A stretch of DNA of 63,818 nt, counting the filler, from Kipferlia bialata (Eukaryota): the NCBI GenBank assembly GCA_003568945.1. It is 6 parts of 6 records of this genome, joined end to end, with 100 filler letters (N's around TTAATTAATTAA, not from the genome) between each part and the next. Parts side by side here need not be neighbours in the genome. Positions count along the whole stretch, not along the records: positions 1 to 11,578 come from BDIP01001223.1; 5 more parts are not named here. The stretch is one strand, 5' to 3'. The notes under the pieces were generated by a model, which saw nothing but the letters and a program-made list of their open reading frames with translations, made no database searches and was not told where the DNA came from. Position numbers and translations under genes: made by a program. Numbering within the stretch: position 1 is the first letter of the stretch; every line of letters begins with the position of its first letter. This document shows, piece after piece, positions 4,455-7,400 of the stretch.

Positions 4455-7400
4455 TAGAGAGAGAGAGAGAGCCTGAGGATACCTCCATTTCAGGTGTAGA
4501 GGGTCTAGGCTGCCCTATATCTAGCTCCACTGCCTCTGACCACACTGTGTATACAAAGACACATATACACATATATAGTACTCTATATACAGTGTACATA
4601 GTACCTCTAGTTCAGGGGTACAGGGGCGTGGCTGTCCAATGTCTAACTCCACTGCCTCTGAACACACAGTATAGACATGCATTGTGTATAAATGGAGTAC
4701 TATATATATACCTCTAGCTCTGGTGTACAAGGTCTAGGCTGCCCTATGTCCAGCTCCACAGCCTCTGACCAGACTGTCACTCCAAGGCTAAGAGAGGCAG
4801 AGACAGCGGCAATCTCTGCTGCTTCACCGTATCCTAGGATAAGAGACTGTTATGGAGAGAGAATCAATGAAGAGACGACGAGTACCTTGCAGTGAGGCTC
4901 TCAATGCAGCTGTGACACTAGGCAGACCCATACTATACATATATATACAAAATTAACTATACATATATATACAAAAATAATACCTTGCAGAGATTGTGAC
5001 ACTGCGCTGGCATGGTGAGTATAATATCATAGAGGATTCATGTAAGAATATATACTACATTCAGTACACTACCTTGCAGCGATGCTCTTAGTGCCGCTGT
5101 GACACTTGGTAGGCACGGGATATACCATATAGTATATATATAATATACTATATATATACATAATAGATACTATACCTTGCAGCGATGCTCTCAATGCTGC
5201 TGACAAAAAATATACATAAATGTAATATATTATTACACTAATACTATACCTTGCAGTGAAGCCCTGAGTGCCGCTGTGACACTGGGCAGACATGGTATAC
5301 TATTCTATATGCAATATAGTCACATGTATTATCGTGCAGTGATGCCCTGAGAGCATATGTATATATATTACATTATACCTTGCAGCGATGCTCTTAGTGC
5401 CGCTGTGACACTTGGTAGACAGGGTATGGCCAGCTGCTTGAGACAGGTCAAAGACCGAGTGCGGTTGGTGACGGGGTCAAAGATACGATCATAGCTGGAG
5501 GGAGAAGATAATTATTGTGTCGAATCGTAATAATACACTACACGTACTCGATCTCCCCATCCTCTCTGGTTGCTCTGTCCACAGGTATGAACTGATCGAG
5601 GGGGATGGCTGTTACAGCAATGCATCTGTAACTCTATAGTGAGAGAAAGAGAGAAAGAGAGAGAGAAAAGGCATGGCCTAGCTGAGGGGGTATTTGTATT
5701 GCAGGTCATCACACATGGATACCTTGTCTGCCAGTGTGGGCCACATTAGTAGAGAGAAATGCAGCAAACGATACGAAAACATGTATGTTACCATATTTCA
5801 GATGTGTTAACATAATATAAATATCACACATGGATACCTTGTCCGCCAGTGTGGGCCTGAGTGGCACGTGGAAGATCTGGAAGTGAGACCGAAGAACGAC
5901 CGAGATCAGAATAGATGTAAAAATTCACCATACCTCCAGCACCACGTGGAAGTGACTGTCTGGGTGTCTGCTGCTGGCAGTCAGGTTGCCATCGGCACTC
6001 CTGGGGTGAGACTGTGTGATGTACCAACATATGGTAACTAATCAGTTAAAATGCTAATCATCATTCAAGCAGATATATCTATATTATGGTCAGGCTGCCA
6101 TCGGCACTCCTGAGGGGGTTAGAATATTAAGAGTAAAGCGTTGTAAAACACACTCCTTACTAAAGCAGTGTCATCAATATTGAGTTATCACTTGAGTACC
6201 TTGTGATTGAGTCGTATGCTGGCACCCTCACTGGATGGGAAGATATACTACATTATACATATAATGATGCTTCTACTATTAATAAACTATAGTCAAAGTA
6301 TATACGTATTATAACCTTGTGATTGAGTCGTATGCAGGCACCCTCACTGGGTGACTGGCAGACCTGTTCACAAGGGTGGACAGTCTACGAACAGGTGCGA
6401 GGTCCTAGAAGTAAGAGGGAATAAGATAGAGAGAGAGAGAGAGAGAAAGAGGGTGGATAGTCTACGCACAGGTGCGAGGTCCTGAAGGTAAGAAAAGGAG
6501 AGGGATAGAACGGTATTGTGCAACAGCGACGGCAGTCCAGCGGCTCCAAAACATAGTATACATGTAGAATATACATAATGTATAGAGTGTATATACTACA
6601 CATATAACAATCTATATACTATTCGAATAATGTTCAACTCACCCTAAAGAGCCCCACAGTGAAGTGCTTCTTGCTGTTCCCAATGGGTGGCTGTCTGCTA
6701 TCCCTCTTGGCACGGACCTGGGGGTTAGGGGTATATACATACATACATAAACTCCATAATCTAAAATATACAGCTACGAACCTCTGCCTTTAGGGATGAC
6801 GCCACTGTAATACTATACCATGCACACACTATCTCCCTTGGAGTAAATACAAAAACGTATATACTAACACACCTCTGCCTCTAGCGAGGGTAGCACTGGC
6901 ACCACTGTGCCCCTGGCATTGGTGGCCCGGACCTGTCGCAGGTACTCGTCCCTATGGGTAAGTATGACATATACTCTGTTAGAACAATTATATATAGGAT
7001 TATACTAATAAATAAAACTGGTGGCCCTGACCTGTTTCAGGTACTCCTCCCTGATATCAGAATGTAAACCATATATACTATGTAGATTCATTCGTAGATT
7101 AGTAGAGATACACGGGTAGAGATGGTAGAGATACCGTATCAATGCAGCAATGGGTATATTTATAAAATTCAACCAATGTACCTGTTTGGCACCAGTGACA
7201 CCGACACAGCAACCTGGCCGGCACCAAAGAGAGCCTAGGAGTGAGGATAGGCGTCTACGAATACAAACACCTAAATATTCCTCAAAGAATATGGATAAGT
7301 CGTCTACAGGTAATCTATAAGAATGATAGGTTTATCTATATACAGTAGTAAATAGAGAGAGAGAGAGAGAGAGAAAGAGAACAAAAAATGATATACCCAC

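What the first reader, a model, noticed from the sequence alone, without database searches (positions are those of the whole stretch)
4480..4833. Clearest synonymous-biased echo: TVWSEAVELDIGQPRPCTPELE x3
Real exon end (minus strand, ends 4712): ACA GTC TGG TCA GAG GCT GTG GAG CTG GAC ATA GGG CAG CCT AGA CCT TGT ACA CCA GAG CTA GAG. Echo at 4605-4670: ACT GTG TGT TCA GAG GCA GTG GAG TTA GAC ATT GGA CAG CCA CGC CCC TGT ACC CCT GAA CTA GAG. Of 22 codons, 13 differ and 12 of those are synonymous, including double-hit CTG/TTA and AGA/CGC. The echo keeps its GT donor, has no consensus acceptor, and sits 41 nt (out of frame) after the real donor. A third copy lies at ~4483-4548.
Basis: seen in the sequence. 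Interest (0 to 1): 0.85.

Follow-up and report, generated by a model that had tools for sequence, protein, structure and literature searches.

The report
Synonymous exon-end echoes filling protist introns
Many introns of the protist Kipferlia bialata hold tandem copies of the neighbouring exon's end that the main transcript skips yet that differ from the real exon almost only in synonymous codons, likely because they are repeatedly overwritten by working alleles from other individuals, which would make one genome a record of hidden sex and extreme diversity.

Summary
The gene is Kipferlia bialata KIPB_005292. Both echoes lie in cis on one DNA contig; the spliced contig uses the first copy. In 10 genes I found 117 anchored echoes: all 73 exon-end+donor copies lie downstream, all 44 acceptor+exon-start copies upstream, none is a whole exon. 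In this gene dS is 0.58 and dN 0.012 (ω 0.02); elsewhere ω is 0.15. Echoes also keep codon bias and good donors, so they descend almost wholly from translated sequence, yet 0 of 69 have a canonical splice route. In simulations, two-way exchange or loop-out inside one genome gave ω of 0.50-0.80; one-way donor cassettes gave low ω but almost no codons private to the real exon (observed 27 of 72). Frequent exchange with other individuals' chromosomes matched ω, dS rising with copy number and, roughly, the private share. Best reading (0.55): silent duplicates refreshed by recombination with diverged coding alleles, implying cryptic sex and very high diversity. Main rival (0.2): rare in-frame use in RNA by an unknown route. 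No second strain and no raw reads were available. My literature searches found no description.

The parts
4712..4833 (-). Real exon (122 nt) of KIPB_005292; its last 66 nt (4712-4777) are the echoed part; donor GTATAT at 4711-4706
   Evidence: RNA-type contig joints 4832>5378 and 4329>4711 (refined); P0001 mapping
4331..4711 (-). 381-nt GT-AG intron holding both 3' echoes and one 5' echo
4671..4711 (-). Spacer 1, 41 nt, AT-rich, no branch point+AG at its end
4605..4670 (-). 3' echo 1: 12 synonymous and 1 nonsynonymous codon differences; donor GTACTA follows
4549..4604 (-). Spacer 2, 56 nt
4483..4548 (-). 3' echo 2 (most distal): 7 synonymous and 2 nonsynonymous codon differences; donor GTATCC follows
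4374..4414 (-). 5' echo of the next exon: branch-point-like motif+TAG acceptor and 27 nt of exon start, skipped by the transcript
4256..4330 (-). Next real exon
4886..5298 (-). Four 3' echoes of exon 5379-5494 (7, 2, 3, 6 synonymous, 0 nonsynonymous); the third matches the real exon exactly over its last 40 nt
10582..10920 (-). Four 3' echoes of exon 10973-11085, all starting at exon offset 73
10159..10385 (-). Two 3' echoes of exon 10460-10529 (an N gap lies between them); post-donor flank 1/30 different from the real one, synonymous sites 5/10
2197..2476 (-). Three 3' echoes of exon 2553-2637 (7, 7, 10 synonymous; 0, 0, 1 nonsynonymous)
3062..3682 (-). Six short, nearly identical 3' echoes of exon 3794-3841 (N gap inside)
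32..11549 (-). Host gene A, KIPB_005292 (912 aa, partial; no Pfam family); 17 of the first 34 introns carry an echo
37442..45244 (+). Predicted gene I, second echo-rich gene (31 anchored echoes, ω 0.085), including six 5' echoes at 44141-44680
   Evidence: exon frames are my prediction
22271..22902 (-). Echoes in a ubiquitin-conjugating-enzyme gene, with radical changes (D>Y, D>G) in the 3' echo

Best explanation
The echoes are tandem duplicates spanning one splice junction that the main transcript skips, and their synonymous differences likely come from repeated overwriting by the working exon of other, highly diverged individuals through short-tract recombination. Step 1 (shown: polarity; inferred: cause): only duplications covering one splice site leave the mRNA unchanged, so only exon-end+donor copies downstream and acceptor+exon-start copies upstream persist. 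Step 2 (shown for 7 cases): splicing takes the first donor and the last acceptor. Step 3 (inferred): in a recombining population where introns are poorly alignable, an echo pairs with the homologous exon of the partner chromosome. Conversion or unequal crossover then copies a selected coding allele into it and also grows or shrinks the array. Missense changes and codon-bias violations arising in place are wiped out, while synonymous differences reflect pooled allelic diversity. Step 4 (inferred context): mismatch-tolerant Dmc1-only recombination would allow exchange over 30-70 bp at about 80% identity. The echoes need no function of their own.
For: (a) Gene A 3' echoes: 118.5 synonymous differences on 293 sites, 10.5 nonsynonymous on 886, no stops (ω 0.021). 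Other genes: 86.5/477 vs 47.5/1587 (ω 0.147, P 5e-24). One echo per array: 115 vs 43 in 74 arrays. (b) The filter is amino-acid meaning, not position: third-position transitions:transversions in gene A are 25:3 at 2-fold and 25:55 at 4-fold sites. (c) Echoes keep codon bias: G>A at AAG/CAG/GAG 4 of 190 vs 21 of 155 at 4-fold G (P 4e-5); selection this weak should not survive dilution to a rarely used copy (inference). (d) 56 of 71 echo donors differ from the real donor at +3..+6 yet score as good donors (0.80 vs 0.16 null, P 0.0005). (e) Echo-versus-echo codon differences are also synonymous-biased, 124 vs 40. (f) No splice route in 0 of 69; donor-to-donor distance not biased to multiples of 3 (18/22/29); the spliced contig skips 3 of 3 3' arrays and 4 of 4 5' echoes at its listed joints. 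(g) pS rises with copies per array, 34/259, 44/176, 95/230, as in the between-individual model (0.165, 0.288, 0.338). (h) That model gave pS 0.29-0.31, pN 0.004, ω 0.01 and a private-to-real share of 0.37 (3 copies) and 0.22 (4 copies); observed 27 of 72. (i) Decay looks added on top: synonymous and nonsynonymous densities correlate negatively (rho -0.20, P 0.03), distal copies have dN 0.035 vs 0.009 inner, and five genes that I judged more conserved have higher ω (0.27). (j) No donor paralogue found: one contig depth over the echoes, nearest paralogues 36-40% identical. (k) Context: all examined Fornicata lack Rad51A and NHEJ and have two Dmc1 (PMC8516963); Dmc1 tolerates mismatches (PMC8682777); yeast BIR over 108 bp still works at about 10% with every 6th base mismatched (PMC9477423); crossovers fall in conserved exons in hyperdiverse Schizophyllum (PMC4209137).
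Against: No second haplotype was seen: no other strain, two metagenome scans empty, so the donor alleles are hypothetical. The model needs synonymous diversity of about 0.15-0.3 or more (the record cited is 0.20, PMC4576712) and overwriting about 600-2400 times the mutation rate; at lower exchange rates it gave ω 0.22-0.75. Observed pN is lowest in the largest arrays (3/658 vs 37/1452, P 0.0005), whereas at a fixed rate the model's pN rose with copy number (0.007, 0.012, 0.027), so locus-to-locus differences in exchange rate must be assumed. Patchiness of differences is significant over all gene A 3' echoes (P 0.011, 0.0007) but not with one echo per array (P 0.26, 0.39). The flank-versus-exon discordance rests mainly on 1 of 10 pairs chosen from 115. 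Sex has not been observed in Metamonada. The sequenced strain shows one haplotype here. The simulations are toy models with 1-3 seeds. A model with the echo translated in 10% of mRNAs also gives low ω (0.005).
Confidence: 0.55

Rival explanations
1. Echoes are translated now: a minority of mRNAs join the exon's 5' part to the same register in an echo, by a repeat-guided jump without splice signals (or a non-heritable template switch), so each echo is under purifying selection in place.
For: Gives low ω with no exchange at all if usage is about 10% (ω 0.005). Would explain kept splice sites (71 of 73 GT, 43 of 44 AG, partly ascertained) and the lowest pN in large arrays. Nonsynonymous changes lean to the truncated end (P 0.04 in gene A 3', 0.007 in all 5'). 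No snRNA candidates were found in K. bialata (PMC6679479), so its RNA processing is poorly known.
Against: The only RNA-type contig laid uses the real copy with 9 of 9 GT-AG joints (contigs drop minor forms). At 1% usage ω was 0.32 in the toy model. Codon bias is kept. Radical changes and a stop occur in echoes of other genes. Echo 1 shares only 9 identical bases in a row with the exon. I know no such mechanism (own knowledge).
Confidence: 0.2
2. Echoes are silent donor cassettes inside one clonal genome: they copy one way into the real exon (or replace its end by loop-out), so a bad echo is lethal when used.
For: One-way conversion gave pS 0.27, ω 0.01-0.03 with three copies, and predicts low pN in large arrays and patches identical to the real exon (e.g. 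40 nt at 5073-5112).
Against: It predicts that the real codon is almost always present in some echo (private share 0.00-0.02); observed 27 of 72 absent from every echo. Two-way exchange or loop-out gave ω 0.50-0.80. Single echoes should sit near 0.5 (inference) but show 34/259 vs 18/824. The contig between two 40-nt identical repeats has depth 421 vs 421.5-423 beside it (a weak limit on loop-out).
Confidence: 0.1
3. Echoes are alternative (mutually exclusive or cassette) exon parts reached by ordinary splicing through unrecognised sites.
For: Tandem exon duplication is a known source of mutually exclusive exons (PMC9013439, search listing only). A few echoes contain an internal AG in frame (10881-10910).
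Against: 0 of 117 anchored hits are whole exons; 0 of 69 3' echoes have branch point+YAG before them or a GT/AG pair in register; 1 of 44 5' echoes has GT after it.
Confidence: 0.05
4. Assembly artefact: diverged haplotypes or strains laid in tandem.
For: Short-read draft with N gaps inside some arrays.
Against: A separately assembled contig spans all three copies at normal depth with 0 differences; shared exact runs are at most 17 nt; all copies of an array start at the same exon offset.
Confidence: 0.02

Closest known systems
Interlocus gene conversion between duplicates and pseudogenes (reviewed in PMC3924837; passages read)
   Same: Silent copies exchange sequence with a functional copy; shared polymorphism is the expected signature.
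   Different: Here the copies are 16-66 nt exon ends inside the gene's own introns, at half the introns of one gene. They are synonymously far from, not homogenised with, their neighbour, and no protein diversity is gained.
Intron gain by tandem duplication of a proto-splice site (PMC2891723; abstract read)
   Same: Local tandem duplication of coding sequence with one copy ending up intronic.
   Different: The duplications span an existing splice site and create no new intron; the intronic copies do not decay neutrally (ω 0.02-0.15) and form arrays of up to 7.
Tandem exon duplication and mutually exclusive exons (PMC9013439, PMC8373072; search listing only)
   Same: Tandem exon-derived copies under protein-level constraint.
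   Different: Each echo has one splice site only and is skipped by the main transcript.
Silent-cassette gene conversion (immunoglobulin pseudogenes named in PMC3924837; pilS, vlsE, VSG recalled)
   Same: Unexpressed partial gene copies kept readable.
   Different: Differences are synonymous rather than diversifying, and the expressed copy is not a mosaic of the echoes present (27 of 72 codons private).
Hyperdiverse Schizophyllum commune (PMC4209137, PMC4576712; abstracts read)
   Same: Recombination between genomes over 10% apart is steered into conserved exons; synonymous diversity 0.13-0.20.
   Different: The abstracts report no intronic exon-end copies; diversity in Kipferlia is inferred here, not measured.
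Nuclear copies of mitochondrial DNA as fossils of other haplotypes (recalled, no call)
   Same: A non-coding copy shows synonymous-biased differences because they arose while its source was coding.
   Different: The source here would be alleles of the same nuclear exon, captured repeatedly.

Membership tests
Mutually exclusive / cassette exons | Each copy has its own acceptor and donor | tested here: not met
   0 whole-exon hits among 129; 0 of 69 3' echoes with branch point+YAG; 1 of 44 5' echoes followed by GT
Mutually exclusive / cassette exons | Copies appear in transcripts | tested here: inconclusive
   The single RNA-type contig uses only the real copies over 3650-7100; contigs drop minor forms
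Mutually exclusive / cassette exons | Purifying selection on the copies | tested here: met
   ω 0.021 in gene A 3' echoes, 0.078 overall
Proto-splice-site tandem-duplication introns | Intron runs from GT in copy 1 to AG in copy 2 at the same register | tested here: not met
   0 of 69 with GT in the exon and branch point+AG in the echo in register; RNA joints use the exon-end donor
Neutral pseudo-exon fragments | ω of about 0.5-1 against the real exon, with stops and indels | tested here: not met
   ω 0.02-0.15; 0 stops and 0 gaps in 42 gene A hits
One-way silent donor cassettes | The expressed copy is a mosaic of the cassettes present | tested here: not met
   27 of 72 synonymous-polymorphic codons of the real exon occur in no echo; model expects 0-2%
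One-way silent donor cassettes | Exchange diversifies the protein | tested here: not met
   Differences are overwhelmingly synonymous
Duplicates under interlocus gene conversion | Shared polymorphism between copies across individuals | not testable with these tools
   One sample only; no relative found in metagenomes
Duplicates under interlocus gene conversion | Patchy identity (conversion tracts) | tested here: inconclusive
   P 0.011 and 0.0007 over 31 gene A echoes, P 0.26 and 0.39 with one per array; 40-nt identical tract in the third of four echoes
Period-3 tolerance of recombinase pairing as the sole cause | Any base change tolerated at every third position regardless of meaning | tested here: not met
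   2-fold sites 25 ts:3 tv vs 4-fold 25:55; 9 of 14 first-position changes in gene A are synonymous Leu/Arg

The most novel reading that the evidence does not exclude
Kipferlia reads its echoes: a splice-signal-free, repeat-guided jump joins the exon to an in-register intronic copy in part of its mRNAs, giving thousands of genes synonymously recoded alternative exon ends by an unknown RNA-processing route.
Probability: 0.17. Interest if true: 0.95.

Novelty: categorically new. Interest (0 to 1): 0.84.

Why it matters
Intronic fragments that cannot be spliced in, yet show dN/dS near 0.02 and keep codon bias, need an explanation outside ordinary exon evolution. If the best reading holds, one genome stores many alleles of each exon end. 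That would be sequence evidence for genetic exchange in a free-living fornicate, a group where sex has not been observed (PMC8516963), and would point to diversity at or above the known record. It would also show what Dmc1-only, NHEJ-free repair does to a genome. With 124,912 introns reported for this species (PMC5874029) there could be tens of thousands of such arrays (extrapolation from one window), enough for population genetics from a single genome. If the rival holds, it is a new RNA-processing route. Either way the skipped but intact donors and acceptors are a natural test set for splice-site choice, and low dN/dS alone is shown not to prove that a sequence is translated.

Tried and rejected
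No whole genome was held, so all counts are for this window. Run search: no RNA holder listed on record; the second run is only guessed to be RNA, though its contig skips 9 GT-AG introns. Read evidence covers 3650-7100 only and is contigs, so minor transcripts, rare loop-outs and heterozygous sites are untested; its table of pieces was cut (24 rows unseen). Two metagenome scans found no relative (P0001; the adaptin exon). P0001 has no Pfam family, no close homologue and two distant paralogues; the protein atlas did not answer. Four-gamete tests had too few informative pairs (1 incompatible of 7). No GC/AT asymmetry between real and echo (81 vs 66, P 0.25). The idea that echoes are selected to differ beyond saturation was not supported: dense patches sit at 0.85-1.0 of saturation. 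Loss of mismatch repair as a cause was dropped: PMC8516963 reports MMR in all studied taxa. Rows dropped before counts: 3 hits in gene J, 12 hits not reaching an exon edge, 6 gapped alignments (no codons counted), predicted exons scoring under 10 or longer than 300 nt, and the last 2-3 ambiguous exons of gene A. Frames outside gene A are my predictions; Pfam supported 5 of 12 exons tried, and wrong frames would inflate nonsynonymous counts there. Not found in print in searches (open-licence PMC and bioRxiv only); the genome paper's main text has no 'tandem' or 'duplicat'; no supplements were read, so the per-species repair-gene table of PMC8516963 is unseen. Earlier scan findings: none.

Full report
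1. Observation. Echo 1 (4605-4670, minus strand) differs from the real exon end (4712-4777) in 13 of 22 codons, 12 synonymous. Echo 2 (4483-4548) differs in 9, 7 synonymous. All three end in GT; the spacers are 41 and 56 nt. Neutral probabilities are 4e-8 and 0.003. One DNA contig of run X1 covers 4482-5099 without a difference at the depth of its neighbours, and the copies share at most 17 identical bases, so the tandem arrangement is not an assembly join.

2. Setting. The exon matches Kipferlia bialata KIPB_005292 at 100%, a 912-aa partial protein with no Pfam family and only distant paralogues (36% and 40%). It maps to 37-38 exons on 32-11549. The window is six concatenated scaffolds. A contig of run X2 (guessed RNA) shows 9 of 9 GT-AG joints in 3650-7100. 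It uses the first donor in 3 of 3 introns with 3' echoes and the last acceptor in 4 of 4 with 5' echoes.

3. The pattern is general. I aligned 136 exons of 12 gene models (gene A from the annotated protein, 11 predicted by me) to their adjacent introns. Of 132 hits I dropped 3 in gene J; of the other 129, 117 reach an exon edge. All 73 exon-end copies lie downstream, all 44 exon-start copies upstream; none is reversed and none is a whole exon. They are 16-66 nt long. 71 of 73 keep GT and 43 of 44 keep AG (partly ascertained, since I extended alignments to the edge only where the site was present). 34 of 42 ungapped 5' echoes keep a branch-point-like motif+YAG, against 39 of their real acceptors. 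17 of 34 gene A introns carry an echo; the chance control is 1 of 1122. Copies in an array mostly start at the same exon offset, so arrays grew from one junction.

4. The echoes descend from translated sequence. Gene A 3' echoes have dS 0.58, dN 0.012, ω 0.021; the other nine genes ω 0.147; all together 0.078. With one echo per array the counts are 115 synonymous vs 43 nonsynonymous. Transversions are common at 4-fold sites (25 ts:55 tv) and nearly absent at 2-fold sites (25:3), so meaning, not position, is filtered. G>A changes are rare at AAG/CAG/GAG (4 of 190) but common at 4-fold G (21 of 155), so the echoes obey codon bias as well. Echo donors differ from the real ones in 56 of 71 cases yet stay consensus. 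Echoes differ from each other in the same way (124 vs 40).

5. They have no ordinary route into mRNA. None of 69 ungapped 3' echoes has an acceptor before it or a GT/AG pair in register with the exon, and distances are not biased to multiples of three. Echoes in some genes carry radical changes or a stop. Five genes I judged more conserved have the higher ω (0.27); synonymous and nonsynonymous densities are negatively correlated; distal copies have four times the dN of inner ones at equal dS. The labels p23-like and AP-endonuclease-like for two of those genes are recalled from motifs; Pfam supported UBC, RhoGEF/PH, Kelch and, weakly, importin-beta N.

6. Which process gives this? I ran toy forward simulations. 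Two-way conversion or unequal exchange (loop-out, re-duplication) inside one clonal genome gave ω 0.50-0.80 in 6 of 6 settings: differences arise on both copies and are erased together. One-way echo-to-exon cassettes gave ω 0.01-0.03, but the real codon was then nearly always present in an echo (private share 0.00-0.02); the data show 27 of 72 private. Exchange with other individuals' chromosomes gave ω 0.07-0.75 over 10 settings, low only at high rates; 0.022-0.034 in 7 of 7 high-rate settings; and pS 0.29-0.31, pN 0.004, private share 0.37 and 0.22. It predicts pS rising with copy number (0.165, 0.288, 0.338); observed 0.13, 0.25, 0.41. Translation of the echo in 10% of mRNAs also gave low ω (0.005), at 1% it did not (0.32).

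7. Results against the favoured model. pN is lowest in arrays of four or more (3/658 vs 37/1452), while at a fixed exchange rate the model's pN rose with copy number; rate differences among loci must be assumed. It needs overwriting about 600-2400 times the mutation rate and synonymous diversity near or above the 0.20 reported for Schizophyllum (PMC4576712, abstract). Patchiness is significant only when all echoes are counted. Only 10 of 115 pairs have clearly homologous post-donor flanks, and one carries the flank-versus-exon discordance. No second haplotype was found, and the strain shows one haplotype here.

8. Mechanism, committed. Shown: polarity, skipping in the main transcript (7 cases), protein- and codon-level filtering, no canonical splice route. 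Inferred: duplications over one splice site are tolerated because splicing picks the shortest exon; echoes pair with partner chromosomes' exons during recombination, are overwritten by selected alleles, and arrays expand and contract by unequal crossover. Context from papers: Fornicata lack NHEJ and Rad51A and have two Dmc1 paralogues (PMC8516963, section 8 and passages); Dmc1 tolerates mismatches (PMC8682777, abstract); 108-bp templates with every sixth base mismatched still recombine in yeast (PMC9477423, abstract); crossovers concentrate in conserved exons in a hyperdiverse fungus (PMC4209137, abstract). Whether the partner DNA comes by meiosis, parasex or uptake from related cells cannot be told. 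Confidence 0.55; in-place use in RNA 0.2; within-genome cassettes 0.1; alternative splicing 0.05; artefact 0.02; the remainder is unassigned.

9. Comparison and novelty. It works like interlocus gene conversion between a gene and a silent duplicate (PMC3924837, passages). It fails tested defining features of mutually exclusive exons, proto-splice duplication introns (PMC2891723, abstract), neutral pseudo-exons and one-way cassettes. The genome paper reports 124,912 canonical introns and does not use the words tandem or duplicat- (PMC5874029, passages and section 7); a spliceosome survey found no snRNA candidates in this species (PMC6679479, passages). Seven searches found no description; subscription journals and supplements were not covered. 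I rate the feature categorically new, while the favoured mechanism uses known parts. Interest 0.84.

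Noticed in passing
window 4374-4414, 3926-3964, 6089-6123, 6450-6495 (minus): The transcript skips intact upstream branch point+AG acceptors (5' echoes) and takes the one nearest the next donor, which suggests exon definition rather than scanning for the first AG.
   Followed up: partly
gene A acceptors, 32-11549: A branch-point-like YTNAY motif sits 2-5 nt before YAG in nearly all introns, resembling the fused branch point/3' site described for diplomonads (PMC6679479).
   Followed up: partly
gene A coding sequence: Extreme bias at Lys, Glu and Gln codons: a single Lys codon type is used in the first 35 exons, while 4-fold boxes are nearly even.
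   Followed up: partly
window 10685-10910 (minus), 524-571, 1789-1815: My gene predictor took echoes with an internal AG or a following GT as extra in-frame exons; automatic annotations of this genome may contain false repeated peptides, or some echoes may be included as cassettes.
   Followed up: no
window 17787-18864 (plus): A p23-like gene (label recalled) with Met/Gly-rich repeated mini-exons, where true repeated exons and echoes are hard to tell apart.
   Followed up: no
window 46662-58209: This scaffold holds intron-poor, long-exon genes (Kelch-repeat gene at 54415-57852; long ORFs at 47415-48968 and 51200-52531) and almost no echoes.
   Followed up: no
window 35852-37366 (minus): An adaptin (Adaptin_N) stretch of about 1.4 kb without introns, unusual beside the 50-120-nt exons of its neighbours.
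   Followed up: no
window 251-436 (minus): The annotated protein maps two ways here (436-416 plus 304-251, or 325-251 alone) because of a 5' echo.
   Followed up: no
whole window: Six scaffolds of about 11.5 kb are concatenated with N+TTAATTAATTAA+N separators; long poly-C/G runs sit at several scaffold ends.
   Followed up: yes
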